In this document: positions 35,926-62,259 of the stretch, piece after piece
Layout of the letters: each line of letters opens with the position of its first letter
Numbering within the stretch: position 1 is the first letter of the stretch
Program-made: the position numbers and the translations under genes
NCBI GenBank assembly: GCA_027078545.1
Contig: JALWXN010000004.1
Span: 142,737 to 206,736 of the forward strand
Source of the DNA: Nitrososphaeria archaeon
GTDB taxonomy: Archaea; Thermoproteota; Nitrososphaeria; Geothermarchaeales; JDFR-13
Reading direction: 5' to 3'
DNA length: 64,000 bases
Notes under the pieces: model-generated
Database searches by the model: none
What the model was told of the DNA's origin: nothing
The model's input: only the letters and a program-made list of their open reading frames with translations

Positions 35926-35929
35926 CGGC

Positions 35930-47039: not shown

Positions 47040-47045
47040 TGGGGC

Positions 47046-48314
47046 TCAGTAGCTCAGGGGGTATCTAAGCAGGGCTGCCACGCCTCCGAACTGGCTGAAG
47101 ATCTTGCCATGCTCCGTCTCGGGGGTTATCAGGACTACCTTGAACCCCATCTCCTCACCCTTATCGGCGAGGTAGTCTATCAACCCCTTCTCCTCAGCTA
47201 TGGACATCTCGGCGCCGCACTTGTCGCACTTGGGTGGGCGGTACTCAAGCTTCAATGCATCTGAGGGGTCGAGGATCAACTCCTTCTCATATCCACATTT
47301 TGGGCATCTAAGCCTTACATACCTCTTGTCGATATCCTCCATCACCAGTACCGTGTCTATGGCCCCGCTGTATATGTTCCTAACCACCTCGTCGATGCCG
47401 TAGAGAACCATGTTGTGCCTCTTGCTCAGCCTTGTTAGGAACTCGTCGACCAGCCTCTTCTCCCTGACATACTTCATCCCCGATAGGATGTCCCTAGCCC
47501 TGTCGAGGATCTCCCTGAGCCCCTCCTCCCCCGAGTAGTTCGTGTCTATGACAGCCACGATCTTGTTCTTGATCCTATAGTCTAGATCCGCCTCCTCGAT
47601 GAACTCGTTCTTAGTAAAGCCTGGCCCACCGACTATGACCCCCCTCAGCCGGGGATAGACATCATCCCTGAGGAACTCTTCATTCACGTGTTTAGCCACC
47701 CTGTCGAAGTATTGGTGGACAGCCATCTCCCTCAGCCGCTCGAACCTCCTGGCCGACTGGCCACCTGCCCTATGCTTACCGGGTATCCCAGAGGTGTATT
47801 TACCCAGCACCTTGATCCTACTCCCCTCCAGTAGGCCTATCGCCGCCTCGTTCACATCTATCGATATGAGGCCGAAGACCTCCTTCTCCCTGAGGGTCTC
47901 CTCTAGATACTCGGTGTGGAAATGGTCGTCACACCTGTAGAGGTTGACGTTCACCGGCTCGGGGGGCTCCACCACGTATATCTCCATCTTCTCAGTCCCC
48001 GGGCCCGATACGGGTATGGCTCCACAGAAGACTACGAGCCCGTTCTCAGGGGCCTCGTCATAGTACTTGAGCCTCTCAATAACCTTGGTTATAGCGTCCT
48101 TCACATGTTTACGGGTCGTGTCGGACTTTATGTTCTCGGCGGTGGCATACTCCTGCCTAAGATAGTTTATCACGTCGGACATCCTCTTCCTAGGAGGTAT
48201 GTATAGGGAGATAAGCTCGGTCCCCCTACCCTTCTTCCTCTTAATCTCCTCAATCATCTTCTTTATCCTATAACGCCTGAGATCCCGCTCCTCAACCTTC
48301 TCCTCTCTAGCCAT
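47046..48314 (-). CDS. prf1: peptide chain release factor aRF1
   Basis: 'GIPGKHRAGGQSARRFERLR' GGQ motif; NIKS-like region; start taken at MAREEKV rather than the 559-aa ORF. Confidence 0.85.
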   Translation of the reverse strand: MAREEKVEERDLRRYRIKKMIEEIKRKKGRGTELISLYIPPRKRMSDVINYLRQEYATAENIKSDTTRKHVKDAITKVIERLKYYDEAPENGLVVFCGAIPVSGPGTEKMEIYVVEPPEPVNVNLYRCDDHFHTEYLEETLREKEVFGLISIDVNEAAIGLLEGSRIKVLGKYTSGIPGKHRAGGQSARRFERLREMAVHQYFDRVAKHVNEEFLRDDVYPRLRGVIVGGPGFTKNEFIEEADLDYRIKNKIVAVIDTNYSGEEGLREILDRARDILSGMKYVREKRLVDEFLTRLSKRHNMVLYGIDEVVRNIYSGAIDTVLVMEDIDKRYVRLRCPKCGYEKELILDPSDALKLEYRPPKCDKCGAEMSIAEEKGLIDYLADKGEEMGFKVVLITPETEHGKIFSQFGGVAALLRYPLSY

Positions 48315-48354
48315 ACCAATTATATTTCGAGGCGGCCTCCATAATAACCTCTGG

Positions 48355-49044
48355 ATGGTCGGGATGGCCGGGTATGTAGTCAAGCTGACCGGCTCACTAT
48401 TCGAGGAGGAGAACTGGGAGACACTGGTATCGATAGCCGAGACAGCCCGCCTCGCCAGGGGTAGGGCGAGGCTACTCTTCGTATGTGGAGGTGGGAGGCT
48501 ACTTAGGAAGTGGCTATCCCTCCTGAGGAGGGAGGGCGGGGCGAGTGAATACGACCTGGACATGCTCGGCATAATGTTTACAAGGGTCAACGCAAGGATA
48601 TTCAGCCTCCTCCTCAAGCCCGAGTCGGAGGAGAGGATACCCGAGACCGTGGAGGAGGCGGTGATGCTGGCTCGGAACACTGATAGACACATCGTCATGG
48701 GAGGCGTATCCCCAGGCTTCTCCACAAACGCGGTGGCAGCCTTCCTAGCAAGGGAGCTGGGCTACAGCTTCATAAACATGACTGGCGCCGGAGGCGTATA
48801 TGACAAGGACCCCACGATACACAGCGACGCGAAGCTCTTGAGAAGGGTCGACACGGAGAAGCTGGCGGAGATACTGGGAGCAACATCCGAACATGCGGGG
48901 CACTACCCACTCCTCGACAAGACCTCCCTAGGGATAATAAGGAGGTACAGGGTCAAGACCTACATAATCCCACCCGACCCTGAATCCCTAGGAGACATAC
49001 TGAGCGGCAGAGAGCCGAGGAGGGGGAGCATAGTCACCCCATAA
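48355..49044 (+). CDS. pyrH: uridylate kinase (amino-acid kinase fold)
   Basis: 'LFVCGGG', 'GVSPGFSTNAVAAFLA', ~225 aa. Confidence 0.75.
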   Translation: MVGMAGYVVKLTGSLFEEENWETLVSIAETARLARGRARLLFVCGGGRLLRKWLSLLRREGGASEYDLDMLGIMFTRVNARIFSLLLKPESEERIPETVEEAVMLARNTDRHIVMGGVSPGFSTNAVAAFLARELGYSFINMTGAGGVYDKDPTIHSDAKLLRRVDTEKLAEILGATSEHAGHYPLLDKTSLGIIRRYRVKTYIIPPDPESLGDILSGREPRRGSIVTP

Positions 49045-49106
49045 GACGGGCCAAACGTTAATAAAAACCGGGGATCCAAATACCTATTGACAGCCCCACC
49101 ACCCGT

Positions 49107-49195
49107 GGAGGGGTTCCCCTAGCCTGGCCAACGGGGCGCGGTTCAGGCCCGCGTGGCGTAGGCCTTCGTGGGTTCAAATCCCACCCCCTCCACCA
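49107..49195 (+). tRNA. tRNA-Leu(CAG), intron-free
   Basis: Same acceptor and D-arm as the 5686 copy; anticodon arm CGCGG-TTCAGGC-CCGCG; long variable arm; CCA. Confidence 0.8.
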
Positions 49196-49380
49196 CCCCT
49201 ATCAACACTCCTAGACACCCAACCACCAACACAGTAAACCATTTACAGACACCAGACTTGCAAAGCTAGACTAAACAATTATTCACCACTTCGAATCCGA
49301 AATAGAAATTTTATATAAGAAGACTTAGGAAATAGCTTATATAGAAAAGAAATATGCTAGGTCAGTGAAGGTGGAACGAG

Positions 49381-49734
49381 ATGAAAATGTCTAGCCGGAA
49401 CTACAAGGTATTCGCGTTGATCCTGGGCAACGCCCTACTAGTCCTAGCAATATTCCTAGAAACCAGCTTCAGACCCGAAGCCGTCATAGTATTCTCATCA
49501 TACTTCGTAATATCATCCATACTATCCAGGTACATAGAAAGCCCTGGATCCCTATTCCACATCACAGTCTCCCTCCTCGTACTATCAATCGTAATATACA
49601 ACAGGCTCATCGGAGACACGAGAAACATACACATAGACATCGCAGTCTTATCAACATACATGGCAGTCACAACAGCAAGAGAAATATACCACGAAGCAAG
49701 GAAGAGACGGCAAACCAACAAACCAAAGCCATAA
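49381..49734 (+). CDS. small membrane protein (3 TM helices)
   Basis: Hydrophobic ORF. Confidence 0.35.
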   Translation: MKMSSRNYKVFALILGNALLVLAIFLETSFRPEAVIVFSSYFVISSILSRYIESPGSLFHITVSLLVLSIVIYNRLIGDTRNIHIDIAVLSTYMAVTTAREIYHEARKRRQTNKPKP

Positions 49735-49967
49735 AACCCCCGGCATAAATACCGAGGGACACCAAGCCACCCAAAAACATCAACAATACAGATAAACAAC
49801 ACCCTCCACCCTTGAGACAGGACAACCAATAGAGGATCGAGGCACGAATCCACAAAGCTGTTGATGGGTTGCTAGGATAATGGAAGCCGTCTGATGATTC
49901 GGTAGGGGGATTTTAGACAGGTTGTTAAATAAATAATGCCATTATAGTTATTTGGGGGCTAAAACCC

Positions 49968-51068
49968 GTGTATAAGCAAGGTATTCCCCTAATACTTATA
50001 GCAATACTCGTAACCGGGTTAACTCCCATCCAGGCCGTGTCGATTGATGATGATCCTCCCGTAAGGGTGTTGCTGAAGTATATTGATGAGGGCTTCACCC
50101 ATATAGGGGATGGGGTCTATGTCATCGACTACATGGAATATCTAAAGCCTCGTAACAGGACTGTATTAGTAAATGGCGAGAAGCTCCCCCGCGAAGCGGA
50201 GGAGTTCATGAGTAACCACGTACTGAATTCCCAGATCATGAAGATGTATGAAAAATACGTGTCTAGCATAAAGTCCCTAGTGGTCACGGCCCTCGAGATC
50301 GAGCAGAGCGTCACCGTGATACCCACGATACACCACTACAACGAGAAGAAGGATATAGTCCTCCTGAGATACCGTATAAACCTCTTCATGGACGACAAGT
50401 ATAGAGACTTTGTAGAGGCCAAGATAAAGGAGCTCTACCCAGTCCTGATCAGACACTTCAGGGCATGGTCGTCAAAGGCAGCTGAACAGTTCTACTACAT
50501 GACGGGGATAGACATCAGCGGCGAGTATAGGAACGAGACCATCATAGTCCTCATAGCAGACATGAAGACGGAGCCCCACTACATAGTGGGGAGGGAGGTA
50601 TATATCCCCAAGGGCTCCAGAGTAGTCGAGGACCCGATCAACGTCACCCACCTAAAAGAGGTGCTGAGAGACGCCATGAATAGATGGCCAGAGCTGGTGG
50701 GCCATGACTACTCATTCGGAATACTCAGGATATTCCTCACAGCATACGACAACCCCCCAACAGAGGAGATACTGGCGAAGGCAACCATGCTGAGGAGGGA
50801 GATACTGGGGAGGGACGACCTACCCATACAGGTAGTCCTCTTCAGAAAAATTCGCATCACCGACATAGAGATAGCCCCATACAGACCAGCAGAGACATCG
50901 CTACAGCCCCCCACAGACCCTGAGACCCAGCCCCAAACCCAGGAACAGCAAGACCCAGCGGCCGAGGAAGACCCGAGCCCAATCACCGCCATAGCCATAA
51001 CAGCCACCACAGCCACGATACTAGCAGCACTAACCCACATACTGAGACGCATCAGGAGAACAGGGTAG
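49968..51068 (+). CDS. secreted surface protein with Pro/Thr/Gln-rich linker and C-terminal membrane anchor
   Basis: N-terminal signal peptide; 'PPTDPETQPQTQEQQDPAAEEDPSP' linker then 'ITAIAITATTATILAALTHILRRIRRTG'. Confidence 0.5.
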   Translation: MYKQGIPLILIAILVTGLTPIQAVSIDDDPPVRVLLKYIDEGFTHIGDGVYVIDYMEYLKPRNRTVLVNGEKLPREAEEFMSNHVLNSQIMKMYEKYVSSIKSLVVTALEIEQSVTVIPTIHHYNEKKDIVLLRYRINLFMDDKYRDFVEAKIKELYPVLIRHFRAWSSKAAEQFYYMTGIDISGEYRNETIIVLIADMKTEPHYIVGREVYIPKGSRVVEDPINVTHLKEVLRDAMNRWPELVGHDYSFGILRIFLTAYDNPPTEEILAKATMLRREILGRDDLPIQVVLFRKIRITDIEIAPYRPAETSLQPPTDPETQPQTQEQQDPAAEEDPSPITAIAITATTATILAALTHILRRIRRTG

Positions 51069-51104
51069 GAGCCAAGAACCAGCCGGACAACCCCCCACTA
51101 AACA

Positions 51105-51125
51105 AGGTAAAACTTATATACCCAC
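51105..51125 (+). promoter_or_regulatory. candidate BRE/TATA box of the 16S rRNA promoter
   Basis: 'AAGGTAAAACTTATATA' about 200 nt upstream of the mature 16S 5' end. Confidence 0.3.
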
Positions 51126-51263
51126 CCCCATAAACATAAAGATGGAACACCAGTCCGTGTGGCGGTATCCAGGCGACAGAGGCGCCCGCCTCGAATGACC
51201 CCTGGATCTCCACACACGGACACACCACCAGATGTCGGTCCAACCGAGGAAAAGATGGTTGGG

Positions 51264-51303
51264 CCGGAGGAGGGACACGCACAGACAACCCACCAACCCC
51301 CCG
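51264..51303 (+). other. 16S pre-rRNA processing stem, 5' strand
   Basis: CCGGAGGAGGGACAC and CAACCCACCAACCCCCC are exact reverse complements of 52866-52880 and 52841-52857. Confidence 0.8.
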
Positions 51304-51325
51304 CACAGGCTATACTCCCCGCCAA

Positions 51326-52824
<1,499 letters not shown>

Positions 52825-52840
52825 AGGTGTTCTGGGTGGT

Positions 52841-52880
52841 GGGGGGTTGGTGGGTTGGTGTTGGGTGTCCCTCCTCCGGT
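52841..52880 (+). other. 16S pre-rRNA processing stem, 3' strand
   Basis: GGGGGGTTGGTGGGTTG ... GTGTCCCTCCTCCGG pairs with the leader. Confidence 0.8.
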
Positions 52881-53300
52881 TTTGTTATGTTGTTTGTTGT
52901 GCTATTGTTTTGATTGTTGTTTCTAGGTGTTTGTTGAGTTGTTGTGTTGTTTTTGGTGGGTTGGTTGTTTCTATTCTGTTTTTTCGGGTTTGTTTGTAGT
53001 TGTGGGGTTTTAGTGTTTTTTTGAGTTTTTGTAGGGTTTTTTGTTTGTTGGTTTCGATTCTTATTATGTATCCTTGTGGTTCGTCGTAGATCATTAGGGT
53101 TATGTGTGTGTCTGGCTGGGGTTTGTAGTGTGCCTCTATTTGTGGCCATCCCCAGTTCTGTGTTGATTCTAGGATTGGTGGTAGGTTGTTTTTGAGTGAT
53201 TCTTCGAGTATTTTTCGGGCTATGTCTAGGTATGTCCTCATCTTCTCCCTCTTTGTTTGTTGGCGTGGGCGGGTGTGTCTTGTTATTCGTTCTTGTGTTA
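52881..53300. repeat. extreme strand-asymmetric low-complexity tract (plus strand G+T rich, almost no A, few C; degenerate TTG/GTTT-like repeats)
   Basis: Direct reading, e.g. 'gttttgttatgttgtttgttgtgctattgttttgattgttgtttctaggtgtttgttgagttgttgtgttgttttt'. Confidence 0.8.
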
Positions 53301-53820
53301 CTTGTTTGAGTGTGTCTATTCCTTGTCTGACTAGGTTTTTTATGTGGGTTGTGTCGAGGGTTTCTAGTCTGTATCTGAGGATGGTGAATGCTACTCCGTC
53401 TGGGTGGATCTGTTCCTCTATGTCTAGTCCTTGTTGCCGTAGCTTCTCCGCGTTTTTTCTGCGTATGTGGTGGTATTTGAAGGCTTCTGGGTATTTCTGC
53501 ATTAGTTGTTGTAGGAATTCTCCTTTCCATGCTCCTTCCATTGGTTTTACTTCTTCCCATTCCTGGTCTAGGTCGAAGAGGATTGTTTCGAAGATCTTCT
53601 CTTTTGGTGTCTCGAGGGCTAGGATCATGTTGTCCATGTCTATCCAGATGGCTTCTATGGAGTAGTCCTCGATCAGGCTTACGGTTACTGATCGGTGGTC
53701 TATGGCTGTGGCTATCTCTGGGGGTATGGTCTCGTCCTCTAGTACTAGCTCGGTTATGACCCTCATCAGGTCGTATGCCTTTGTTAGGCTCCTCATAACT
53801 CCCCCCTCTTCTCCTCCCAA
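52885..53820 (-). CDS. hypothetical protein, paralog of 54557..55486; the C-terminal third is a Q/T/K/N/P low-complexity tail encoded by the T-depleted strand (possibly decaying)
   Basis: Shared 'YPEAF(K/R)...LR(Y/L)RL' segment with the 309-aa ORF; the tail lies in the tract where stop codons cannot occur. Confidence 0.4.
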   Translation of the reverse strand: MGGEEGGVMRSLTKAYDLMRVITELVLEDETIPPEIATAIDHRSVTVSLIEDYSIEAIWIDMDNMILALETPKEKIFETILFDLDQEWEEVKPMEGAWKGEFLQQLMQKYPEAFKYHHIRRKNAEKLRQQGLDIEEQIHPDGVAFTILRYRLETLDTTHIKNLVRQGIDTLKQVTQERITRHTRPRQQTKREKMRTYLDIARKILEESLKNNLPPILESTQNWGWPQIEAHYKPQPDTHITLMIYDEPQGYIIRIETNKQKTLQKLKKTLKPHNYKQTRKNRIETTNPPKTTQQLNKHLETTIKTIAQQTT

Positions 53821-53929
53821 TGTAAGATGTAATCTTGGGGTATGGCTGTTTTAACTTATTTCTTGACTAGGTTATCTGTGTCTGGAGAGTGTATTGGTTA
53901 AATTTTGATTTAGATATCTATTTTTTGGA

Positions 53930-54595
53930 ATGAGGCTTGCTTTACTGTCTCTCGCTTTGGGAGCCATATTTCTATATGTTGTCCTTAGTTATCCTCTGGT
54001 CTATCCTCTAGCTGAAAAAGATGGTAGAAGGGTATGTCTCGACTTAGAGGCGCTGGAGATAGATATGACGATTATCGTTGTTGGTGAGACTAGTGCCTAT
54101 GTAGATGGGGTTATAGAGGTGTATATAGATAGGGGTATGGGGGTTGTACGTCTAGAGCCTGATGATCTAGATGATTTTGACTGGATGGAGGTTGATGGGC
54201 TCGGCATAGTCGTGTTCTATGGCGATTGGCTGGCCAGCCATGTGTCAGACCCGAGGATAGCAGGCTTTATTGCTGAAATCGAGTTTGATAGGATAGGTCT
54301 TGTAGCGATCGATGGCAATACATCTAGCCTCTTTACCCTTCTGGATATGGTGGGTATCTATAAACTTGTACAAGAGGGTGGTGTAAAGTGGAACCCTGCA
54401 TATTCAAATCCTCATGTGGTGGGGTATATGCATCTTGAGGGGGTGATGCCTAATGGAAGCATATACTACTTCCCCTCGATCTTAATGTCGAATAGTAGGC
54501 TTGAGATAGATGCGGCTATCGCGATTGCCAATTGGATGGCTGGTGAAGACTACGAGTCAGAGCTGGACTGTGAATGGGTCCAGCTCCCGGGGTAG
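53930..54595 (+). CDS. secreted/membrane-anchored hypothetical protein
   Basis: N-terminal hydrophobic 'LALLSLALGAIFLYVVLSY'. Confidence 0.4.
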   Translation: MRLALLSLALGAIFLYVVLSYPLVYPLAEKDGRRVCLDLEALEIDMTIIVVGETSAYVDGVIEVYIDRGMGVVRLEPDDLDDFDWMEVDGLGIVVFYGDWLASHVSDPRIAGFIAEIEFDRIGLVAIDGNTSSLFTLLDMVGIYKLVQEGGVKWNPAYSNPHVVGYMHLEGVMPNGSIYYFPSILMSNSRLEIDAAIAIANWMAGEDYESELDCEWVQLPG

Positions 54596-55486
54596 TGTAT
54601 CCCTAATCCACTGCCTCAGTCTTAGTGTTCCTATGAATACTTCTCTGTATAGTAGCTTCTCTGTATGGAGTGTCTCTTTATACCTGCCCGTCTCTAGTAG
54701 TTCCCGGCGTTTCTCGGGTGTCGCGGGCCTCATCACTACATGGTATTTATGGCTGTCCATCTCTATCTCTAGGGCTTTGACCAGCCTGCTCTTCTCCGTT
54801 CTGATATGGATCGCCGTGGGGGTCAGGTTGGATAGGTATACTGCCTGGGGTGTCTCGCCGATCCTGAGTAGGCTCTTCAGAGCAGTCTTCGCGGTCTCGT
54901 ATAGCTCGTCTGTCGTCCTGGTCTCCCCCCTCCTATAGTAGGGATCGGCGGCGTCTCGATCCCTACCCATCTCCCTACACCATCTCTGGAATGCCTCGGT
55001 GGCCTCCCTTGTCCTTGCGAGTATCTCGCCCGGCCCCCACCTGGCTATACGGAGCTTTAGCCTCGTATATGTATAGCTGTTCCGATCCACAATCGTCTCC
55101 AGCCTAATATTCATCTCCCTCGAGACTTTCTGAGCCGCCTCACGGGACATATCTAGATGTCTGAAGGCCTCGGGATACCTCTCCCTAAGGCTCTCTAGGG
55201 TGCTGGGGCTACTCCAGTCATCCACGTCCGAGAACTCGTCCTCCGCCCCGGGGTATAGCTGGGCTATCATCTCGGCTAGCTCATAGCCACCGCTCCTCGC
55301 CTCTAGCAGCCTGCCCTGCCGCCTAAGCTCCAGCTCCTCCAGCCTATCATCATCTAGGGTGATGAGGACCCTCCCCTCGTTTATGGATATGGAATAGTAT
55401 GGGGCGAATATCGTCTCCCCGATTAGGTGCTTGGCGGCCAGATACGACATATCCAGGTTCTCCCGGATCTTCCCATGTCTAGTCAT
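54557..55486 (-). CDS. hypothetical protein, last gene of the TGT-like operon
   Basis: Start overlaps the stop of the upstream 408-aa gene by 8 nt. Confidence 0.45.
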   Translation of the reverse strand: MTRHGKIRENLDMSYLAAKHLIGETIFAPYYSISINEGRVLITLDDDRLEELELRRQGRLLEARSGGYELAEMIAQLYPGAEDEFSDVDDWSSPSTLESLRERYPEAFRHLDMSREAAQKVSREMNIRLETIVDRNSYTYTRLKLRIARWGPGEILARTREATEAFQRWCREMGRDRDAADPYYRRGETRTTDELYETAKTALKSLLRIGETPQAVYLSNLTPTAIHIRTEKSRLVKALEIEMDSHKYHVVMRPATPEKRRELLETGRYKETLHTEKLLYREVFIGTLRLRQWIRDTLPRELDPFTVQL

Positions 55487-56705
55487 CTCGATCCCTCCAA
55501 AGGATTATGTATCCCTTATTACTCCTATGGTCGTAGCCAATTATTACGACAATTCTGGATAGTTTTTCCACCCGCCGATTCAGTAGGTCCTTTCCAACTA
55601 CTCGTGTCAGCAGATCATAGTATTCACTGACTTGTTTAACGGCATTCTTTAAGGATCTCCTCCCTTCCCTTTCTTCAAACCTATACTTTATCTCTGCTAC
55701 ATACATCTCATTCTCGATAAATCCTATTATATCGGGTCTGCGATTAGCGAGGATCTCCCTTAATACATCTTTATAGGGATCGTGTTTAGTGGGCTCAACA
55801 TACACTTCACGTATTCCGATGCTGTACAGGAAATTGATGGCTAAACTCTTCCCCAGGACGTCTCTTTTAGTCATGAACCCATCATTCCTTCCTTCTAGAC
55901 GGTCTTTATGACTCTCCCTCATTATGGTGTCGGCTAGACTTCTAAGATTTTCATCCCTTATCCTGTATGTATACCTCTCTACTTCCAAGCCCGCTATTCT
56001 GGTTTTCTCTTTTTCGAGTATCTCCAACGAATCCGAAATAGGTTTAAAAAGCTTCTTCTTAACATTCTTCTCGACGTCAAGAGACGTCTTCTTAAGCTTC
56101 TTTCCATGTCTGTAGTATAGATCGATGCTATATAGGGAGCTCTCTAACTTCTCGACTCTGTAAACTGCTGGTCTAGATCCTCGCCTAGGTTCTACTATCC
56201 ATAAATTAGCTTTTCCAAGTTTCATCTGAAACTTGAGTGTTACTACTTGACCTGCACGTGTTTTGCTGGGATACTCAGCTAGTAGTGCCACTCCACATCC
56301 TCTCTCCTTTTCATAGCTCCATCTCTCAGTGGATAGATATACGTCTCCCATCTTGACTACTATCTGGTTTATGTTGATGCTTAGAACTATTGGTAAGGTT
56401 TTCCTTATCGCTTCGTTAAAGTCTTTTATAAAATTGTAGACGTTGAAGGGTTTGATATTTACCCAATATTCCCCAGGCTTAAGGCCGCTAAACATTATTT
56501 CCTTCTCTTTCTCGCCCCCAAGGTGTCTCCAGTAGTAGATATACTGTTCTCCATCGTGGATCTCTAATTTGAAGACATCTGTACCCAGCATGTCGCGGGC
56601 ATATTCAAATGTCAGACCGTGAATAACCAGTGTAGGGTATTTACCTCTCCTAATGACCGCGTTTGCAAGTATCTCAATGGACTCAGGCCTTATAGTTTCT
56701 CCCAC
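55479..56705 (-). CDS. hypothetical protein with C-terminal PD-(D/E)xK nuclease-like motif
   Basis: 'EVYVEPTKHD...RRPDIIGFIENEMYVAEIKYR' (D325...E338.K340). Confidence 0.5.
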   Translation of the reverse strand: MGETIRPESIEILANAVIRRGKYPTLVIHGLTFEYARDMLGTDVFKLEIHDGEQYIYYWRHLGGEKEKEIMFSGLKPGEYWVNIKPFNVYNFIKDFNEAIRKTLPIVLSININQIVVKMGDVYLSTERWSYEKERGCGVALLAEYPSKTRAGQVVTLKFQMKLGKANLWIVEPRRGSRPAVYRVEKLESSLYSIDLYYRHGKKLKKTSLDVEKNVKKKLFKPISDSLEILEKEKTRIAGLEVERYTYRIRDENLRSLADTIMRESHKDRLEGRNDGFMTKRDVLGKSLAINFLYSIGIREVYVEPTKHDPYKDVLREILANRRPDIIGFIENEMYVAEIKYRFEEREGRRSLKNAVKQVSEYYDLLTRVVGKDLLNRRVEKLSRIVVIIGYDHRSNKGYIILWRDRDD

Positions 56706-56708
56706 GGT

Positions 56709-58301
56709 TTACACACCGTGTTCCTTAGATTTTCCAAATAGTTGGAATGGATTTACACCCTCTAGGATCTCCACTTCTCCGCTATGGGTGATGTATACTC
56801 CTCCGGGTCTTAGTAGTCTGGCTGGTTCTCTGTAGGATCCCCACCTCCCAGGCGTGGCTATCCTCCTCTCCCTGTCTATGTAGGGCTCTTCGATATAGTC
56901 TGTTACTAGCCATCCATCCTCACCTATCCCCCTGCCTAGATCCTCGATGGCCGCCTCCCTGGGTTTTCCACTGGGGCCTAGAAGCCTAATAGTCACGTCG
57001 AAGCCTCCTCCCCAGGTCTCCTTCCTTATGGTCATGGATCCCCATCTAGCTGTTAGGACTAGTCTGGTGACTAGTTCTCTAACCTGGGCTTCACCCTGGT
57101 CAGGACTCTCCTCTACTAGGTCTATACCCCTGTATAGGAGGCTGTCGAGTAGGCGGCCTATGTTGGCCCTGCCTGGCGGCATGTCCCATACCAGGATTAT
57201 CCTGGTGTCCCGATGTGTATCTATCCATGCTCTAAACTCTTCCAGCACTTGTATGGATATCCGGCTGGTGTCGAATACCCGGCCCGTCAGGACTAGGTAT
57301 CTAGGCCTATGCTCACCAGCCATCTTGAGGCCCAGTCTCCATAGGCTGTGCCTCCCACCTATCATGAGGTCGTTTAGTATCAAGAGGTCGTCATACGTCT
57401 CTAGGATGAGGTCGTATCTCTCCACCCTGTAGTCCCTACTCTCCTCCCCAGCGTAGTGCCTAATCAGTTCACGGCTTATCATGAGGTTGTGGAGGGATAT
57501 GTACCGCCTCTCCCTCCTGAGCCTAGGCCCCGTGGCCAGGCACACATCGCAGTTACAGTGGTAGAACCCCCTCCTAATGTCTATGGCCTCGCCCAGCCCT
57601 CCATACACCGTCATCCTAGTGGCGTCGATAAACCATGAGTATCCAGCCAGCCTTATCCTCTCCGGATCCAGAGCCATCAGGTCGGGGATGTGCCTAGGCC
57701 CGGCCCCACCAAGTACCAACACCTCCTTGAATGGGTATTCGAGGATGAGCTCTAGGAGGTGCTTCAGATATTCATGGGTGTATCTGATGCCTGCTAGCCC
57801 AGCCCTCCTGAGGTAGGGCTCTATATACTGGTTTGTGGATAGGTAGGGAGACGCATGTATAGCCACGGTCTCGAAGCCCAGCTCAGCCAGCCTCTCACAT
57901 GCATATCTCTTATGCTCGGGGTAAGCCCCCTTTACAAGGGGTATTATGTTGAACCTCCCCCTAAGCCTCTCCACCACCTCTAGAGACTTCAATGTGTTTC
58001 GCCAGCTGGCCTCCTCATCGTCTAGATATGTGGGGGTGTCCCAGGCTATTATATAGTCGAAGCCATGCTCCGAGGCGAATCCTAGGAAGTCTTGTAGCGT
58101 CTCCTCCCTCTCCAGATACTCGTCAGGCATGATGCTTGAGAGTATCAGCTTTATACCGGGGTTGGCCTCCCTAATAAGACGTATATCCTCCGGGCTTATC
58201 ACCACCTCGTAGTATGGTAGGACTGCATATCCAAAGTGGTGGGCCGCCTCGGCGAAGATCCTCAACGCGTCTCTACCGACTATGGGGATGAAGTGGTCCA
58301 T
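56709..58301 (-). CDS. divergent tRNA-guanine-transglycosylase-family protein (DpdA/ArcTGT-like) with extra ~230-aa C-terminal domain
   Basis: Zn subdomain 'YHCNCDVC...(x19)...ISLHNLM', 'VLVLGGAGPRHIPDL' resembling the TGT 'LFGAGHP' region. Confidence 0.6.
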   Translation of the reverse strand: MDHFIPIVGRDALRIFAEAAHHFGYAVLPYYEVVISPEDIRLIREANPGIKLILSSIMPDEYLEREETLQDFLGFASEHGFDYIIAWDTPTYLDDEEASWRNTLKSLEVVERLRGRFNIIPLVKGAYPEHKRYACERLAELGFETVAIHASPYLSTNQYIEPYLRRAGLAGIRYTHEYLKHLLELILEYPFKEVLVLGGAGPRHIPDLMALDPERIRLAGYSWFIDATRMTVYGGLGEAIDIRRGFYHCNCDVCLATGPRLRRERRYISLHNLMISRELIRHYAGEESRDYRVERYDLILETYDDLLILNDLMIGGRHSLWRLGLKMAGEHRPRYLVLTGRVFDTSRISIQVLEEFRAWIDTHRDTRIILVWDMPPGRANIGRLLDSLLYRGIDLVEESPDQGEAQVRELVTRLVLTARWGSMTIRKETWGGGFDVTIRLLGPSGKPREAAIEDLGRGIGEDGWLVTDYIEEPYIDRERRIATPGRWGSYREPARLLRPGGVYITHSGEVEILEGVNPFQLFGKSKEHGV

Positions 58302-58453
58302 TCCACTTAATACTATGGCCTCGTGAGAGATTCATATCCTCGGCGTTTCTGCAACACCCCTAGACTGGTGAAACTGTTCATGAATCAGCCTAGTATCCGG
58401 GTCTCCACACTATTTATTTCTGGATCTACCCATGTATACCTTGGTGTACCAAT

Positions 58454-58705
58454 GTGCTGGTAACGGTGTCTATAAAGGTTAGGAGGGAGGTCGTGGATCT
58501 GGCTGATAAGATGGTCCGCCTCGGCCTGGCTAGGAGTAGGTCCCACGCCTTCAACAGGATGATTGAGAAGGGTCTGGATAAGATTCGGGAGGAGGTGGGC
58601 TTCTGGGAGGATACGCTCATTAGGCTTGAGGATCTCTCCAGATCTGGTTATAGGATCAGGCATGGAGGCCTCTCGAGGCTTTTGGTGGAGGGTAGGAGCA
58701 GGTGA
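58454..58705 (+). CDS. vapB: VapB-like ribbon-helix-helix antitoxin
   Basis: 'VSIKVRREVVDLADKMVRLGLARSRSHAFNRMIEKG'; 4-nt overlap with vapC. Confidence 0.6.
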   Translation: MLVTVSIKVRREVVDLADKMVRLGLARSRSHAFNRMIEKGLDKIREEVGFWEDTLIRLEDLSRSGYRIRHGGLSRLLVEGRSR

Positions 58706-59103
58706 TATGTCTAGACACAGATATAATTATCTCCTACCTCGACGAGCTGGATCCTAACCATCAAACAGCTGTGGAGCTCCTATCAGGGATACGTGGCAGG
58801 AGAGTGGTGAGCTGGTTGACCATAGTCGAGCTATCCAGCGTCTATTCACGGGCGGGTATGGAGTCTCCAGCAGCGCTGGCCCTATACTCCATCGAGAAGG
58901 TAGGAGCCGAGCTGGTCGACCTAGACATGGAGACGGTCATTAGGGAGGCCCTCAAACTATCCAGCCGGCTACGCCTTAAGACACTCGACCTGCTACACAT
59001 ATCTGCCTCCCTACAGGCCGGGTGTAGGTTCTTCATGACGCTGGACAAGGAGATTAGGAAGGCGTCTGATGAGATTGGGAAGATGGGGATTAGGATAATA
59101 TGA
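58702..59103 (+). CDS. vapC: VapC PIN-domain toxin
   Basis: 'CLDTDIII', 'TLDLLHISAS', C-terminal acidic residue. Confidence 0.8.
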   Translation: MICLDTDIIISYLDELDPNHQTAVELLSGIRGRRVVSWLTIVELSSVYSRAGMESPAALALYSIEKVGAELVDLDMETVIREALKLSSRLRLKTLDLLHISASLQAGCRFFMTLDKEIRKASDEIGKMGIRII

Positions 59104-59215
59104 ACTCGTGTAAGGCTTGCTGACTACTCCTCATGGTTTGGGGGACTGGGTTCTCGGCGCCAGAATATGTGGATAAGAGATTTATTAGAGATGTGTGGAT
59201 TATAGACAGTTGGAT

Positions 59216-59292
59216 GGGCCCGTAGCTCAGCCTGGCGGAGCACCGGGCTCATAACCCGGGGGTCGTGGGTTCAAATCCCACCGGGCCCACCA
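59216..59292 (+). tRNA. tRNA with CAU anticodon; the acceptor stem is identical to tRNA-Ile(GAU), so probably tRNA-Ile2 (agmatidine) rather than tRNA-Met
   Basis: GGGCCCG/CGGGCCC acceptor, anticodon arm CCGGG-CTCATAA-CCCGG, CCA encoded, no intron. Confidence 0.85.
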
Positions 59293-59337
59293 GGGATATC
59301 TACATATCTCCCTTGGCTGTGAATAGTTTTCCTGGCT

Positions 59338-59886
59338 ATGGTTCTCAGGGTGGGGCTCTACACCAATAATAGGGCTAAGATAGAGGGTGTCTATAGGGTC
59401 TTCGAGGAGCTCTATAGGGATGTCGAGCTGGTGACTAGTGGATCCGGGCTAGTCTTAAAGGATCAGCCCACATCCCTCGAAGAGATTGTGGAGGGAGCTG
59501 TTGCTAGGGCTAGGCATATGATACACAACTTCGATGTGGACTATGGCGTGGGTGTGGAGGCCGGTGTCTCCCCCCTAGGGCTATATGGTGTATACATAGT
59601 TCTACAGGTAGCCGCTGTGACGAGGGATGGGATAGGCTTTGGGCTGGGCGGCTCCTCAGCCTATTTCATAGACCATAGCCTAGGCTCCAGGATCGTTAGT
59701 AGCTCCATGGCGCGTGTACTGGAGAGTATAACTGGTGATCCTAGCATGAGGGAGTCGAAGGGCTTCATAGGCTACCTGACCCGGGGAAAGGTTGATAGGG
59801 CTGTGCTGACATATGAGGCTACCCGGAACGCGCTCCACACCTTTCTAAATGGCCATGTATTCAAGATGCCTAGTAAGGATCTCTAG
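59338..59886 (+). CDS. YjjX-like non-canonical purine NTP phosphatase
   Basis: 'VGLYTNNRAK', 'SGSGLVLKDQPTSLEE', 'GVGVEAGV'. Confidence 0.45.
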   Translation: MVLRVGLYTNNRAKIEGVYRVFEELYRDVELVTSGSGLVLKDQPTSLEEIVEGAVARARHMIHNFDVDYGVGVEAGVSPLGLYGVYIVLQVAAVTRDGIGFGLGGSSAYFIDHSLGSRIVSSSMARVLESITGDPSMRESKGFIGYLTRGKVDRAVLTYEATRNALHTFLNGHVFKMPSKDL

Positions 59887-60630
59887 GAGGGCTGTCTCCA
59901 CCGCTCCGCCATAGATGAGTAGGGCTGTGGCTATGGATAGGGAGGCCGCCACGTAGATCACATCCCAGAACCCTATCTTCATGGTGGTGAAGGGGGTGTG
60001 TCTAGCCCCCTCCCTGAAGCCCCGTAGCTCGAGGGTCTCGGCCACGCTTATACTCTTCCTTACACTTATGATGATGAGTGGTATGAGGATCGCTGTATAG
60101 TTCCTTATCCTCGTGGTTATGCCGCCAGTATCTAGTCTATGGCCACGGGATAGCTGTGCCTCCACTATCTCTGTCAACACCCTTGCCAATACATGTATGA
60201 AGCGGAGTGAGAGTGAGAATGCTAGGGTGATGGTTAGGGGCATACCCATCTTCTCCAGTGTTATGGCGAAGTCGTCGGGATTGGTGGTTAGGAAGAACGT
60301 GTTTAGGCTCATGACTAGGTTTAGGAGCTTCTGGGTGGGTAGGAGACTCGCCATCGGGTCTCCGGAGACTAGGTAGTTGGCTAGGAAGACTAGGGTCATG
60401 AGTGGAGCCAGGGTCACCAGGTTTTTCACCAGTTTTCTCCCTAGCCGCCCCAGTAGTAGTAGCGTGGCTAGTAGGAGGGCTGTTATGAGTAGCTGGATCG
60501 CTTGGCTGTTAACCAGTATGGTGAGGACCATATAGATGAATGCTACTAGTAGCTTGGCCCTAGGATCCAGCCTGTATAGGGCTGCGTCTCGCTCCTCGAA
60601 TCTGAAGGCCTCTAGCCCGATCCTATACAT
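59845..60630 (-). CDS. ecfT: ECF transporter transmembrane T component (CbiQ/EcfT)
   Basis: Multi-TM protein with 'ARAMESRGF'-like 'ETLELRGF' signature; downstream of two ABC ATPases. Confidence 0.7.
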   Translation of the reverse strand: MYRIGLEAFRFEERDAALYRLDPRAKLLVAFIYMVLTILVNSQAIQLLITALLLATLLLLGRLGRKLVKNLVTLAPLMTLVFLANYLVSGDPMASLLPTQKLLNLVMSLNTFFLTTNPDDFAITLEKMGMPLTITLAFSLSLRFIHVLARVLTEIVEAQLSRGHRLDTGGITTRIRNYTAILIPLIIISVRKSISVAETLELRGFREGARHTPFTTMKIGFWDVIYVAASLSIATALLIYGGAVETALLEILTRHLEYMAI

Positions 60631-61438
60631 TGTCGAGCACCCCCGCCACCTCGGCGAATACTCCGCAGTATCCGTGATAGTCCCTGATGACGCCGCTGGT
60701 CTTCATGTAGCTTGTTGAGCGGGCATATGTAGGCTTGACCAAGCCATACCTTCCCAGCTGGCCGGGATCTAGGTCTATGAGCTCCTGTGTATAGCCCCTA
60801 TACACGACTTGGCCGCCGCTGAGTATGACTACCCTCCCCTCCCTCTCTAGAACCAGCTCCATGTCATGTGTCACTATGACTACGGCCCCTCCTCTTGAGA
60901 GGTGTCTATCTATGGCCCATTGGAGCCTCCTCCTATAGTCGCCGTCGAGCCCTATTGTGGGCTCGTCCAGGACTAGGTATCGGGGGCTCCAGCCAGTCAT
61001 TATGGCTATGGATAGTATCCTCTTCTCTCCCCCGCTGAGGGTGAAGGGTGATCTGTCCCGGTATCTTGATAGGCCGTACTCCCTTAGGATCTCCTCGGCC
61101 CGTTGGTCAGGGTTCTCCACGCCGAAGTTCCTGAGTGTCGTGGATATCTCCTCGATTACTGTGGGCATGTAGAACATCTTCTCGGGGTTTTGGAATACTA
61201 TGGAGACCTTCTCGGCCAGTCTGGATACTGGTGTCTCCCTTGTGTCTAGGCCGTCCACCAATACTCTTCCCCTACTCGGTTTTAGGAGGCCGTTTAGATG
61301 TCGTATCAGGGTTGTCTTGCCCGAGCCGTTGTCCCCGAGGATATAGTATATCTCCCCCTCCACTATCTCGAGGGAGACGTCTCTAAGGACGTAGTTCCCG
61401 CCGTCATAGGTGTACCAGAGGTTCTCCACCCTTATCAA
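60623..61438 (-). CDS. ecfA: ECF transporter ATPase
   Basis: Walker A 'GDNGSGKTT', signature 'LSGGEKR', Walker B 'LVLDEPT'. Confidence 0.85.
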   Translation of the reverse strand: MIRVENLWYTYDGGNYVLRDVSLEIVEGEIYYILGDNGSGKTTLIRHLNGLLKPSRGRVLVDGLDTRETPVSRLAEKVSIVFQNPEKMFYMPTVIEEISTTLRNFGVENPDQRAEEILREYGLSRYRDRSPFTLSGGEKRILSIAIMTGWSPRYLVLDEPTIGLDGDYRRRLQWAIDRHLSRGGAVVIVTHDMELVLEREGRVVILSGGQVVYRGYTQELIDLDPGQLGRYGLVKPTYARSTSYMKTSGVIRDYHGYCGVFAEVAGVLDNV

Positions 61439-62259
61439 CTGTTTACACCCCTGGTGTTGACCACCTGTTTAAGGTCGTGGCTCAGGCGGATGTGTAGGGG
61501 TATGTTCAGCCTATGTTCCTCCGAGCCTAGGAGGTTGAGTAGCCTCCCCGGACTACCCGTGTATCTGACCACTCCCCTGTCTATGTAGATCACTGTGTCG
61601 ACGAATCCTATCCAGTAGTCTAGTCTATGGTCTATGACGAGGAGTGTGCTCTGGCCCGGGATATAGGTGTCTAGGAGGCTCTGGAGGTTCTTCACCGCCA
61701 TTGGTGATAGGTATGCCGAGGGCTCGTCGAGTATAAGCATCTTAGGCTCTAGCACCAGCATACTGGCTATAACCACCTTCTGTAGCTCGCCTCCCGAGAG
61801 TGTGTCTGTGGTTCTCCCCCATAGATGTGATATTCCTAGGTTCTCCATCACCCGCCTAGTTATCCTCTCCATCTCCTCTGTGGTCAGCCCCCTAAACTCT
61901 AGGGAGAAGGCTATCTCCCTCTCGACCTTGGTCATCAGGACCTGCTCCTCAGGGTTCTGCCTGAGATAGCCCACTGTCTCGGCCAGCCTCTGTATAGGTG
62001 TCTCTGACACCTTCATCCCGTCCACCACGACCTCGCCGGAGTATTCCCCCTGGTAGAAGTGGGGTATTAGGCCGGTGATGCACCTGGCCAGAGTGGTCTT
62101 ACCGGATCCGCTGGCCCCTACAAGTAGGTATCTCCTCCCCCGCTCGAGTCTCAGGTCTATCCCTCTGAGGGCTTTATCCCTGGCCCCTAGATACTTGAAC
62201 TCTAGGTTCTCTATGGATACTATCTCCTTCATCACGCCTCTCCTAGCTAAGCCTTTCAA
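61435..62259 (-). CDS. ecfA: ECF transporter ATPase (second)
   Basis: 'GASGSGKTT', 'LSGGELQ', 'LILDEPS'. Confidence 0.85.
   Translation of the reverse strand: MKGLARRGVMKEIVSIENLEFKYLGARDKALRGIDLRLERGRRYLLVGASGSGKTTLARCITGLIPHFYQGEYSGEVVVDGMKVSETPIQRLAETVGYLRQNPEEQVLMTKVEREIAFSLEFRGLTTEEMERITRRVMENLGISHLWGRTTDTLSGGELQKVVIASMLVLEPKMLILDEPSAYLSPMAVKNLQSLLDTYIPGQSTLLVIDHRLDYWIGFVDTVIYIDRGVVRYTGSPGRLLNLLGSEEHRLNIPLHIRLSHDLKQVVNTRGVNS

What the first reader, a model, noticed from the sequence alone, without database searches (positions are those of the whole stretch)
52885..55486. Two paralogous unknown genes flank a secreted-protein gene; one copy looks like it is decaying into the low-complexity tract
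ORF 52885..53820(-) and ORF 54557..55486(-) share clear similarity. For example, 'LMQKYPEAFKYHHIRRKNAEKLRQQGLDIEEQIHPDGVAFTILRYRLETL' aligns with 'LRERYPEAFRHLDMSREAAQKVSREMNIRLETIVDRNSYTYTRLKLRIARW', and both N-termini are acidic. The copy nearer the 16S gene ends in a ~100-aa Q/T/K/N/P tail encoded entirely by the T-depleted strand of the GT-rich tract. The copy inside the operon has an ordinary C-terminus. This suggests a duplicated component of the island, with one copy possibly a degenerating pseudogene.
Basis: seen in the sequence. Interest (0 to 1): 0.55.

Follow-up and report, generated by a model that had tools for sequence, protein, structure and literature searches.

The report
Diverged cassette paralogs beside the 16S
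The two genes are real but ancient paralogs, each the third gene of a little-known three-gene cassette, and the odd-looking copy next to the 16S rRNA gene is an intact, selected gene whose tail has been re-coded by an extreme local base-composition bias, not a decaying pseudogene.

Summary
The paralogy is real, but it is old and covers a whole operon. ORF B (54557..55486) is gene 3 of cassette 1. Gene 1 is a TGT-like enzyme of 530 aa. Gene 2 is a PD-(D/E)xK nuclease-like protein of 408 aa. ORF A (true start 53796, 303 aa) is gene 3 of a second cassette. Related contigs still carry that cassette's genes 1' and 2' (39% and 27% identical to cassette 1). In this genome a deletion removed them and left 12 codons of gene 2' in front of A.

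A is not a pseudogene. All six alleles recovered are intact. dN/dS is 0.075-0.094 (p about 1e-16 against neutrality). A aligns end to end with distant family members, tail included. AlphaFold places the tail in a confident helix-hairpin-helix.

The Q/T/K/N/P character is strongest in the last 54 residues, not 100. It is the end point of a composition gradient. A has no T at any of its 304 third codon positions, and G also disappears from them toward the 16S gene. The tail keeps its conserved hydrophobic core, while 82% of its surface positions use amino acids spelled by A/C-only codons. The cause of the gradient and the function of the cassette remain inferred.

The parts
52885..53796 (-). Gene A: gene 3' of cassette 2, 303 aa, ATG at 53796, stop at 52885-52887
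   Evidence: The exact 303-aa product is in public gene calls. It is 28% identical end to end to P0022. Omega is 0.075-0.094 against five other alleles. AF2 gives pLDDT 92 and pTM 0.88. T at codon position 3 is 0/304.
52888..53049 (-). Tail of A (codons 250-303). Predicted helix 252-265, beta hairpin 267-277 and helix 284-300. 74% K/N/T/Q/H/P. Third positions are 74% A and 26% C.
   Evidence: All 5 of the most conserved family hydrophobic columns are kept, and 82% of surface columns are K/N/T/Q/H/P. The tail aligns to the family C-terminus.
53793..53831 (-). Remnant of deleted gene 2' (last 12 codons, YILHWEEKRGEL, plus a stop that overlaps A's ATG). This is the deletion scar.
   Evidence: Homology to L002 begins at window 53831 = L002 4449, inside the 420-aa gene 2'. 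L018 has the identical junction.
53832..53929 (.). Intergenic region between A and the divergent membrane/secreted-protein gene. It replaces the roughly 3 kb that holds genes 1' and 2' in L002, L003 and L015.
53930..54595 (+). It is a highly divergent allele, 46% aa identity to the L002 version.
54557..55486 (-). Gene B: gene 3 of cassette 1, 309 aa. Its start overlaps the end of gene 2 by 8 nt.
   Evidence: It is 32% identical over its full length to P0019.
55479..56705 (-). Gene 2 of cassette 1, 408 aa. Beta-rich N-terminal half plus a C-terminal PD-(D/E)xK (AHJR-like) nuclease-type domain with invariant P324-D325...E338-x-K340.
56709..58301 (-). Gene 1 of cassette 1, 530 aa. TGT-family (tRNA-guanine transglycosylase-like) barrel with an invariant C249-x-C251-x-x-C254...H271 zinc motif, plus a roughly 240-aa C-terminal region of unknown type.
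   Evidence: PADLOC TGT model E=4e-12. Profile vs ArcTGT 1iq8 E=7.5e-4. Invariant columns.
51327..52825 (+). Archaeal 16S rRNA gene, convergent with A. No 23S gene lies in the window.
   Evidence: Rfam RF01959, 1457.9 bits.
52841..52879 (+). 3' arm of the 16S processing stem (pairs with 51264-51302). It ends 5 nt before A's stop codon.
   Evidence: Inverted repeat I1: 39 nt, 87% complementary.
52950..53042 (+). Five runs of T5-T7 on the 16S-sense strand (starting at 52950, 52979, 53016, 53026 and 53037). All lie inside the tail-coding region. They are candidate archaeal oligo-T terminators for the 16S transcript.
   Evidence: 20 runs per kb here against 0.70 per kb for the window. The terminator function is inferred, not shown.

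Best explanation
A and B are the third genes of two anciently diverged copies of one three-gene cassette. Gene 1 is a TGT-family enzyme, gene 2 is a protein with a C-terminal PD-(D/E)xK nuclease domain, and gene 3 is a roughly 300-aa alpha+beta protein of an unannotated family.

Cassette 1 (530-408-B) is complete here. Cassette 2 sits convergent on the 16S gene, as in related genera. In this genome it lost genes 1' and 2' through one deletion, which left 12 codons of gene 2' fused in front of A's start codon.

A remains a functional protein-coding gene. Its unusual tail is the family's normal C-terminal helix-hairpin-helix. An extreme local strand-composition pressure, strongest next to the 16S gene, removed every T and then every G from synonymous sites. 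It also pushed nearly all solvent-exposed residues to amino acids spelled with A/C-only codons (K, N, T, Q, H, P). Selection kept the buried hydrophobic positions.

Inferred, not shown:
1. Gene 3 proteins work as partners of the gene-2 nuclease. The two genes overlap by 4-8 nt and recur as pairs.
2. The cassette acts on nucleic acid in a conflict-type or modification-restriction-type role.
3. The composition pressure is mutational (strand-specific deamination-type transitions) and may be reinforced by selection for oligo-T terminators of the 16S transcript on the opposite strand.
For: Operon-wide paralogy:
- L002 carries B | secreted | 517 aa | 420 aa | A.
- 517 aa vs 530 aa: 39% identity, E=6e-102. 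420 aa vs 408 aa: 27%, E=2e-49.

Deletion:
- Window 53793-53831 encodes YILHWEEKRGEL*, the C-terminus of gene 2'.
- L018 has the same junction.

Ancient split:
- A is closest to P0022 (28%) and B to P0019 (32%).
- Cassette-2 genes are closest to the L011 cassette (46%, 44%, 24-26%). That cassette is also convergent on a 16S gene.

A is functional:
- Six alleles are intact. Omega is 0.075-0.094, p about 1e-16.
- T at codon position 2 is normal in the body (0.29), while T at position 3 is 0.
- AF2 gives pLDDT 92 and pTM 0.88, and 90-96 in the tail.

Tail is homologous:
-.
- The 5 most conserved hydrophobic columns are all kept. 82% of surface columns are K/N/T/Q/H/P, against 27% in B.

Gradient:
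- In L002, T3 runs 0.19 at 3.6 kb, 0.13, 0.02-0.08, then 0.00 next to the 16S. G3 runs 0.34-0.43 down to 0.07. A3 runs 0.06-0.15 up to 0.61.
- In other genes of the window, T3 in 100-codon bins averages 0.194 (sd 0.083).
- The AT-rich relative L011 lacks the gradient in gene 3 (T3 0.23-0.28).

Domain assignments.

Gene 2 + gene 3 pairs recur in L008, L009, L006 and L011.
Against: - The direct A-B alignment is significant only over about 70 residues.
- The tail has 3 synonymous and 3 non-synonymous differences (omega 0.26, p=0.12). Selection on the tail alone is not demonstrated.
- AF2 confidence leans on the family alignment and does not prove that this particular sequence folds.
- No function is established. 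Gene 3 matches no PDB fold at E<=1e-3 and no Pfam, NCBIfam, PADLOC or PHROG family.
- In the ArcTGT alignment, the catalytic nucleophile Asp of 'LFDSASY' falls on 'RLAGYSW' in gene 1, so transglycosylase activity is uncertain.
- A simple 16S read-through mutation model does not explain the mirror-image gradient upstream of the 16S promoter.
- It also does not explain why the secreted gene's GT-richness is independent of its distance from the 16S.
- How A is transcribed after losing its operon promoter is unknown.
Confidence: 0.72

Rival explanations
1. A is a degenerating pseudogene. Its C-terminus is dissolving into the low-complexity GT-rich tract.
For: A has lost its two upstream operon partners. 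The tail has fewer family-core hydrophobic residues (7 of 12) than the body (76-79%). A relative (L005/L010) has lost A except for a 74-nt remnant. A is more diverged from the L011 ortholog (24-26%) than genes 1' and 2' are (46%, 44%).
Against: All six alleles are intact and 912 nt long, with the same stop. Omega is 0.075-0.094, p about 1e-16. The tail aligns with distant homologs. AF2 gives pLDDT 90-96 in the tail. T at the second codon position is kept while T at the third is zero. Two genomes that differ by 6% in nucleotide sequence share the deletion and both keep A intact.
Confidence: 0.05
2. The tail's composition is mainly selected, not mutational. A's stop codon lies 5 nt from the 16S processing stem, so the 16S transcript must terminate inside A's coding region. 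Selection for oligo-T runs on the 16S-sense strand forces oligo-A (Lys/Asn/Gln/Thr codons) into the tail.
For: Five T5-T7 runs lie in the 245 nt after the 16S gene, 20 per kb against 0.70 per kb for the window. In L011 the equivalent gene ends 229 nt before the 16S, with a T-rich (16S-sense) spacer, and has normal composition. The A-less L005/L010 lineage keeps a 270-nt spacer of the same composition.
Against: T3=0 and the G3 decline extend over the whole 912-nt gene. In L002 they extend a further 1.3 kb into gene 2', far beyond any terminator. A mirror gradient lies upstream of the 16S, where no terminator is needed.
Confidence: 0.2
3. A and B arose by a recent tandem duplication in this genome. 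A is the redundant younger copy.
For: The two genes are adjacent, in the same orientation, and of similar length.
Against: The paralogs are only 24-39% identical. Each has closer relatives in other genomes. The A-type cassette next to a 16S gene is shared with a roughly 35%-GC relative whose 16S is 96.7% identical.
Confidence: 0.03
4. The cassettes are cargo of an integrated archaeal virus or mobile element, not a chromosomal system. Their variable content reflects mobile-element turnover.
For: The only confident structural relatives of A are two 'uncultured archaeal virus' proteins (BFVD A0A1S5Y2T8, E=1.5e-12, TM 0.74/0.68; A0A1S5Y2W4, E=1.4e-8). Genes 2, 1', 2' and A are present in some strains and absent in others. 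Modules are arrayed in L008. A PIN-domain gene is adjacent.
Against: The position between conserved housekeeping genes and the 16S is the same across lineages. There are no relatives in IMG/VR viral contigs and no PHROG hits. No integrase or repeats were seen in the fetched loci.
Confidence: 0.15

Closest known systems
tRNA-guanine transglycosylase family (ArcTGT, PDB 1iq8; bacterial and phage DpdA DNA transglycosylases of the Dpd system)
   Same: Gene 1 matches a TGT model (PADLOC, E=4e-12) and ArcTGT (profile, E=7.5e-4). It has the C-x-C-x-x-C...H zinc motif in the aligned position. As in Dpd, the TGT-like gene is linked to a nuclease-type gene.
   Different: No Pfam TGT hit at E<=10. The nucleophile Asp is not aligned. 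There is an extra 240-aa C-terminal region of unknown type. No DpdB/C-like partners or helicase genes are adjacent. No DpdA structure was hit by sequence.
Cap10, the TGT-family protein of type IV CBASS (bioRxiv 10.1101/2025.04.06.647259)
   Same: It is a TGT-fold enzyme recruited into a conflict system. It acts on a partner protein rather than tRNA, which sets a precedent for a non-tRNA role. From my own knowledge, the PADLOC 'TGT' model is probably the CBASS type IV component.
   Different: According to the paper, Cap10 lacks the zinc site, whereas gene 1 keeps it. No cyclase, QueC-like or effector genes are present here.
PD-(D/E)xK nucleases of the archaeal Holliday-junction-resolvase-like group (Pfam PF18743 AHJR-like, PF01870 Hjc)
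   Same: The gene-2 homolog P0048 passes the AHJR-like gathering score (27.9 vs 26.1 bits). P-D...E-x-K is invariant. The predicted alpha-beta-beta-beta-alpha-beta topology fits.
   Different: The window protein itself has no Pfam hit. A 230-aa beta-rich N-terminal half has no known relative. The whole-model Foldseek search found nothing significant.
Uncharacterised proteins of uncultured archaeal viruses (UniProt A0A1S5Y2T8, A0A1S5Y2W4; BFVD models)
   Same: Full-length fold match to the A model (TM 0.74/0.68, E=1.5e-12).
   Different: 13-16% sequence identity, no annotation, and genomic context not examined.
Directional mutation pressure reshaping protein composition (for example strand-asymmetric deamination in animal mitochondrial DNA, or transcription-associated A>G/C>T asymmetry). 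This comparison rests on my own knowledge.
   Same: One strand becomes G+T-rich. Synonymous sites go to fixation. Amino-acid usage follows codon availability, while buried positions resist.
   Different: The effect here is confined to about 2-3 kb on each side of a single 16S gene, is mirror-symmetric, and is complete (T3 = 0/304). The process behind it has not been identified.

Membership tests
Gene-3 family (unnamed, about 300 aa, core motif K/R-Y-P-x-A-F) | Significant full-length sequence similarity to other members | tested here: met
   A vs P0022 E=6e-35 (residues 4-299). B vs P0019 E=3e-57. A profile of A+B finds 31 cluster representatives at E<=1e-3.
Gene-3 family (unnamed, about 300 aa) | Position immediately downstream of, and overlapping, a roughly 400-aa gene-2 homolog | tested here: met
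   B overlaps gene 2 by 8 nt. A's orthologs in L002 and L015 overlap gene 2' by 4 nt. In the window only the last 12 codons of gene 2' remain.
Pseudogene | Disrupted or truncated reading frame relative to functional homologs | tested here: not met
   The 303-aa ORF is collinear with the family to the last helix. Six alleles have no stops or frameshifts.
Pseudogene | Neutral evolution (dN/dS near 1) | tested here: not met
   Omega is 0.075-0.094, binomial p about 1e-16. For the tail alone, omega is 0.26 from only 6 substitutions, p=0.12, which is inconclusive.
Intrinsically disordered low-complexity tail | No stable predicted structure and no positional conservation | tested here: not met
   AF2 pLDDT is 90-96 for residues 250-300, with helix-hairpin-helix. 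Core hydrophobic columns are kept. Caveat: this is a prediction that depends on the alignment.
TGT / DpdA transglycosylases (gene 1) | TIM-barrel TGT homology with the C-x-C-x-x-C...H zinc site | tested here: met
TGT / DpdA transglycosylases (gene 1) | Catalytic Asp nucleophile in the 'F-D-S/C' motif | tested here: inconclusive
   The HMMER alignment puts ArcTGT 'LFDSASY' against 'RLAGYSW'. An invariant D226 lies 8 residues downstream, and alignment accuracy there is low.
Dpd 7-deazaguanine modification-restriction system | DpdA together with DpdB/DpdC and the DpdD-K restriction genes | tested here: not met
   PADLOC gives only the TGT hit. No other Dpd component was found among the cassette proteins.
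PD-(D/E)xK nuclease superfamily (gene 2) | The (P)D...(D/E)-x-K motif on an alpha-beta-beta-beta-alpha-beta core | tested here: met
   P324, D325, E338 and K340 are invariant. The strands carrying D325 and E338/K340 appear in the AF2 model. AHJR-like Pfam hit for homolog P0048. Catalytic activity was not tested.
Type IV CBASS (Cap9/Cap10) | CD-NTase plus QueC-like Cap9 plus TGT-like Cap10 | tested here: not met
   No cyclase or QueC homolog was found among neighbours in the Pfam and PADLOC scans.

The most novel reading that the evidence does not exclude
Two linked possibilities.

1. The TGT-like / PD-(D/E)xK / new-fold trio is an undescribed archaeal nucleic-acid modification-and-cleavage (conflict) system. 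Its gene-3 proteins would be nucleic-acid-binding or specificity partners, and A would still work as a solo subunit with cassette 1 in trans.

2. The 16S locus is the centre of a very local, mirror-symmetric, strand-specific mutational process. Candidates are a replication origin beside the rRNA gene, or outward transcription from the rRNA promoter region. The process would be strong enough to purge every T from 304 synonymous sites and to rewrite the surface of a folded protein without destroying it.
Probability: 0.25. Interest if true: 0.7.

Novelty: new variant of a known kind. Interest (0 to 1): 0.45.

Why it matters
For annotation, A should stay a gene. Its start should move to 53796, and the 39-nt scar upstream explains why it is isolated.

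For biology, three points stand out:
- The locus gives a clear natural series for one operon: a complete cassette, a solo third gene, and a 74-nt remnant. This shows that gene 3 can be kept without its own partners.
- It is a clean example of base-composition pressure rewriting a protein's surface while purifying selection holds the buried core. That is useful for separating low-complexity sequence from junk.
- It brings to light an uncharacterised, hot-spring-archaeal cassette that joins a TGT-family enzyme to a PD-(D/E)xK nuclease, in a genome that also carries GmrSD and McrBC-type restriction genes (Pfam hits).

The unexplained mirror gradient around the 16S gene could mark an origin or an unusual transcription-associated mutational regime in a hyperthermophile.

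Tried and rejected
**Searches that found nothing**
- Pfam, NCBIfam, PADLOC and PHROGs on A and B. The weak SRP9 hit on A (E=0.003, below cutoff) was dismissed.
- The PDB sequence profile of the family.
- Foldseek of the A model against PDB: no hit at E<=1e-3, and the top hits (aminotransferases, MotA C-terminal domain, type III secretion chaperones, ARPC2) have TM<=0.25.
- Foldseek of the gene-2 model against PDB. Only a weak cap-snatching endonuclease match, consistent with PD-(D/E)xK, was seen.
- A genome-contig scan with the B family.
- A metagenome-contig scan with the A family.
- A viral-contig scan with the gene-2 profile.
- A literature search for the assembly accessions.

**Searches that failed or returned little**

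**Ideas tested and set aside**
- An extended leader-trailer helix formed by the AC-rich upstream and GT-rich downstream flanks. Beyond the 39-nt processing stem, the inverted-repeat hits are not nested.
- A distance-dependent read-through mutation model as the whole story. The secreted gene has the same GT bias at 0.3, 1 and 3.9 kb from the 16S, and the upstream gene shows a mirror gradient.
- The first MAFFT alignment of A with the B family alone. It mis-registered the tail and made A look truncated. The 28-sequence alignment corrected this.
Full report
**Setting.** The window carries an archaeal 16S rRNA gene at 51327..52825 (+), with no 23S gene downstream. Its processing stem is a 39-nt inverted repeat, 51264-51302 against 52841-52879. 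To the right, in order, lie:
- ORF A (-)
- a 221-aa gene with a hydrophobic N-terminus (53930..54595, +)
- ORF B (54557..55486, -)
- a 408-aa ORF (55479..56705, -)
- a 530-aa ORF (56709..58301, -)

The public gene call for A starts at the ATG at 53796 and gives 303 aa, not the upstream TTG.

**Checking the observation.** BLASTP of A against B gives one significant segment: 24% identity over 76 aa, E=9e-6. Profile-profile comparison of the two shallow families gives E=2e-4 over 67 columns. On its own this is modest.

A full HMMER scan of 1.84 billion cluster representatives with an A+B profile found 31 representatives at E<=1e-3, mostly 280-330 aa. Through them the homology is secure and covers the full length:
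- A vs P0022: 28% identity over residues 4-299, E=6e-35
- B vs P0019: 32% over the full length, E=3e-57
- B vs P0022: E=2e-15
- A vs P0019: E=4e-11

So A and B are paralogs, but they belong to different old subfamilies.

**Operon-scale paralogy and a deletion.** The only close relatives of A (95% identity) come from hot-spring metagenome contigs. In L002 the order is B-ortholog, secreted gene, a 517-aa gene, a 420-aa gene, then the A-ortholog, which overlaps the 420-aa gene by 4 nt. The 517-aa protein is 39% identical to the window's 530-aa protein (E=6e-102). The 420-aa protein is 27% identical to the 408-aa protein (E=2e-49). A is therefore gene 3' of a second three-gene cassette.

In the window, homology to L002 begins at 53831. 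The 39 nt from 53793 to 53831 encode YILHWEEKRGEL*, the C-terminus of the 420-aa gene. Genes 1' and 2' were therefore deleted here. L018 (GCA_027060065.1) has the identical junction and is 93.6% identical to the window over 54962..52700. Its A allele, however, is 99.2% identical to that of L002, which implies recombination among haplotypes.

Other states of the locus exist:
- L003 and L015 keep cassette 2.
- L003 and L004 lack gene 2 of cassette 1.
- L005 and L010 (16S 97.3% identical to the window's) have only a 270-nt AC-rich spacer between the secreted gene and the 16S stem. The spacer contains a 74-nt remnant of A. Its local alignment score is 52, against a maximum of 45 in 300 shuffles.
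- A roughly 35%-GC relative, L011 (16S 96.7% identical over 546 nt), has a complete 518-413-297 cassette convergent on its 16S gene. Its genes are closer to cassette 2 (46%, 44%, 24-26%) than to cassette 1.

The A-type cassette beside the 16S is therefore ancestral, and the duplication is ancient.

**Is A decaying?** No.
- All six recovered alleles are 912 nt with no internal stops.
- Nei-Gojobori omega between the window allele and the others is 0.075-0.094: 13-17 non-synonymous against 40-43 synonymous differences, binomial p about 1e-16 against neutrality.
- T at the second codon position, which encodes hydrophobic residues, is normal in the body (0.29), even though T at the third position is zero.

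For the tail alone there are only 3+3 substitutions (omega 0.26, p=0.12). Selection on the tail is therefore argued from homology and structure rather than from rates.

**What the tail is.** In the 28-sequence family alignment, A runs to the same C-terminal column as the other members. Against P0022, the last 24 residues match at P-KT-QQL-KH-ET-IK-I. AlphaFold2 with this alignment gives mean pLDDT 92 and pTM 0.88. The tail forms helix 252-265, strands 267-271 and 274-277, and helix 284-300, at pLDDT 90-96.

Of 12 family-core hydrophobic columns in the tail, A keeps 7, including all 5 of the most conserved. Of 22 surface columns, 82% are K/N/T/Q/H/P, against 27% in B. These six amino acids are exactly the ones that have codons made only of A and C. 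The strongly biased stretch is the last 54 residues (74%). Residues 201-250 (44%) form an ordinary beta sheet.

**The composition gradient.** A has 0 T at its 304 third positions, and the other alleles have 1-2. G at the third position falls 0.24, 0.12, 0.12, 0.00 along the gene. The last 54 codons end only in A (74%) or C (26%).

In L002 the gradient runs through the whole cassette. T3 goes from 0.19-0.20 at 3.3-3.6 kb from the 16S stem, to 0.13, to 0.02-0.08, to 0.00. G3 goes from 0.34-0.43 to 0.07, and A3 from 0.06-0.15 to 0.61. In other genes of the window, T3 in 100-codon bins averages 0.194 (sd 0.083). L011's gene 3 is normal (T3 0.23-0.28), so the bias arose in the higher-GC lineage.

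Among synonymous differences listed, my own count is that the window allele has A where L002 has G about 14 times, against 3 the other way. This suggests continuing G-to-A change on the coding strand, but the direction is not polarised.

On the 16S-sense strand this corresponds to loss of A and C and gain of G and T. That is the signature expected from deamination of an exposed strand (an inference from general knowledge).

Read-through transcription from the rRNA promoter is an attractive cause but cannot be the whole story:
- The gene upstream of the 16S (49968..51068, +) shows a mirror-image gradient, with T3 falling from 0.28 to 0.02 toward the 16S.
- The secreted gene is equally GT-rich at 0.3, 1 and 3.9 kb from the 16S in different genomes.
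- Third-position TA skew of the + strand is mostly negative left of the 16S and positive in every bin to the right, regardless of gene orientation.

The region may therefore sit at a polarity switch. I leave the cause open.

A selective contribution is also plausible. A's stop codon is 5 nt from the processing stem, and five T5-T7 runs, typical of archaeal terminators, lie in the next 245 nt on the 16S-sense strand (20 per kb against 0.70 per kb). L011 keeps a separate 229-nt spacer.

**What the cassette may do.**
- *Gene 1.* It matches a TGT model (PADLOC, E=4e-12) and archaeosine TGT 1iq8 (profile, E=7.5e-4). The C-x-C-x-x-C...H zinc motif is aligned and invariant, but the nucleophile Asp is not clearly aligned.
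- *Gene 2.* It has an invariant P-D...E-x-K motif on an alpha-beta-beta-beta-alpha-beta core. A homolog passes Pfam's AHJR-like threshold. Its N-terminal beta-rich half is unassigned, and Foldseek found nothing significant.
- *Gene 3 (A/B).* It is built of repeated helix-sheet-helix modules. It has no significant PDB neighbour. It does have a full-length fold match to two uncharacterised proteins of uncultured archaeal viruses.

Genes 2 and 3 overlap by 4-8 nt and recur as pairs, sometimes arrayed, without gene 1 (L008/L009). Gene 3 also occurs alone.

My working model, held with low confidence, is a nucleic-acid-directed conflict or modification-restriction-type module in which gene 3 partners the nuclease. 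TGT-family enzymes are known both in the Dpd DNA-modification system and, remodelled for a protein substrate, in type IV CBASS. The defining partners of both systems are absent here.

**Verdict.** The 'duplicated component' reading is right and can be widened to the whole cassette. The most unusual feature is the complete purge of T from synonymous sites and the composition-driven rewriting of a still-conserved protein tail beside the 16S gene.

Noticed in passing
window 49968..51068 (+) and 52885..53796 (-), with 16S at 51327..52825: A mirror-image synonymous-site gradient surrounds the 16S gene. T at codon position 3 falls from 0.28 to 0.02 along the upstream gene toward the 16S, and it is 0 throughout A on the other side. 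On both sides, the strand that runs 5'->3' away from the 16S is G+T-rich.
   Followed up: partly
window 1..64000, third codon positions mapped to the + strand: TA skew of + strand third positions is mostly negative left of about 51 kb (exceptions include 43.5-48 kb). It is positive in every 1.5-kb bin from 52.5 to 63 kb, regardless of gene orientation. This is a polarity switch at the 16S locus, which could mark an origin or terminus. No Orc1/Cdc6 gene was found among the ten neighbouring proteins scanned.
   Followed up: partly
window 38099..43845 (-): A lower-GC island (third positions AT-rich) encodes a GmrSD-type restriction enzyme (38099..39784), an McrBC-component protein (40460..41860) and an AAA_5 McrB-like ATPase (41860..43845). 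By my own knowledge these are modification-dependent restriction systems.
   Followed up: no
window 53832..54612: The secreted-protein gene plus the last 18 or so codons of B form a highly divergent allele. It shows about 68% nt and 46% aa identity to L002-L005, while the flanks are 83-98% identical. All alignments to those loci break at 54612. L018 shares the window-type allele. This looks like a recombination-exchanged variable segment.
   Followed up: partly
L003 9943..10001 and L004 5445..5503: In two related genomes cassette 1 lacks gene 2 (the nuclease-like gene). Gene 1 is followed by B after a 58-nt gap.
   Followed up: no
L008 121..1434 and L011 831..2144: A 437-aa protein is made of two tandem copies of the gene-2 N-terminal beta-rich domain, without the nuclease domain. 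It is encoded near gene 2 + gene 3 arrays.
   Followed up: no
L008 2876..3004: An A/C-only tract lies directly upstream of a gene-2 homolog in an AT-rich relative. It translates as MRHQQETTTKTQTRSNTHNPKRRNQNNQTRK when read from a TTG. Similar AC-rich spacers occur in L005 and L010, so such tracts recur around these cassettes.
   Followed up: no
window 58702..59103 (+) and 59216..59292 (+): A PIN-domain (VapC-like) gene and a tRNA-Met gene lie immediately beyond cassette 1. A PIN gene also precedes the gene-1 homolog in L014.
   Followed up: no
window 37057..37151, 40292..40386, 44387..44540 (+): Rfam tRNA hits of 95-154 nt, presumably intron-containing. ARAGORN reported only the first of these three.
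   Followed up: no
L010 9384..11237: The JGI contig shows gene 2 and B split and fused into several ORFs (166, 320 and 103 aa). These are probably frameshift errors of that assembly, or real decay in that lineage. P0018 is such a fusion product.
   Followed up: no
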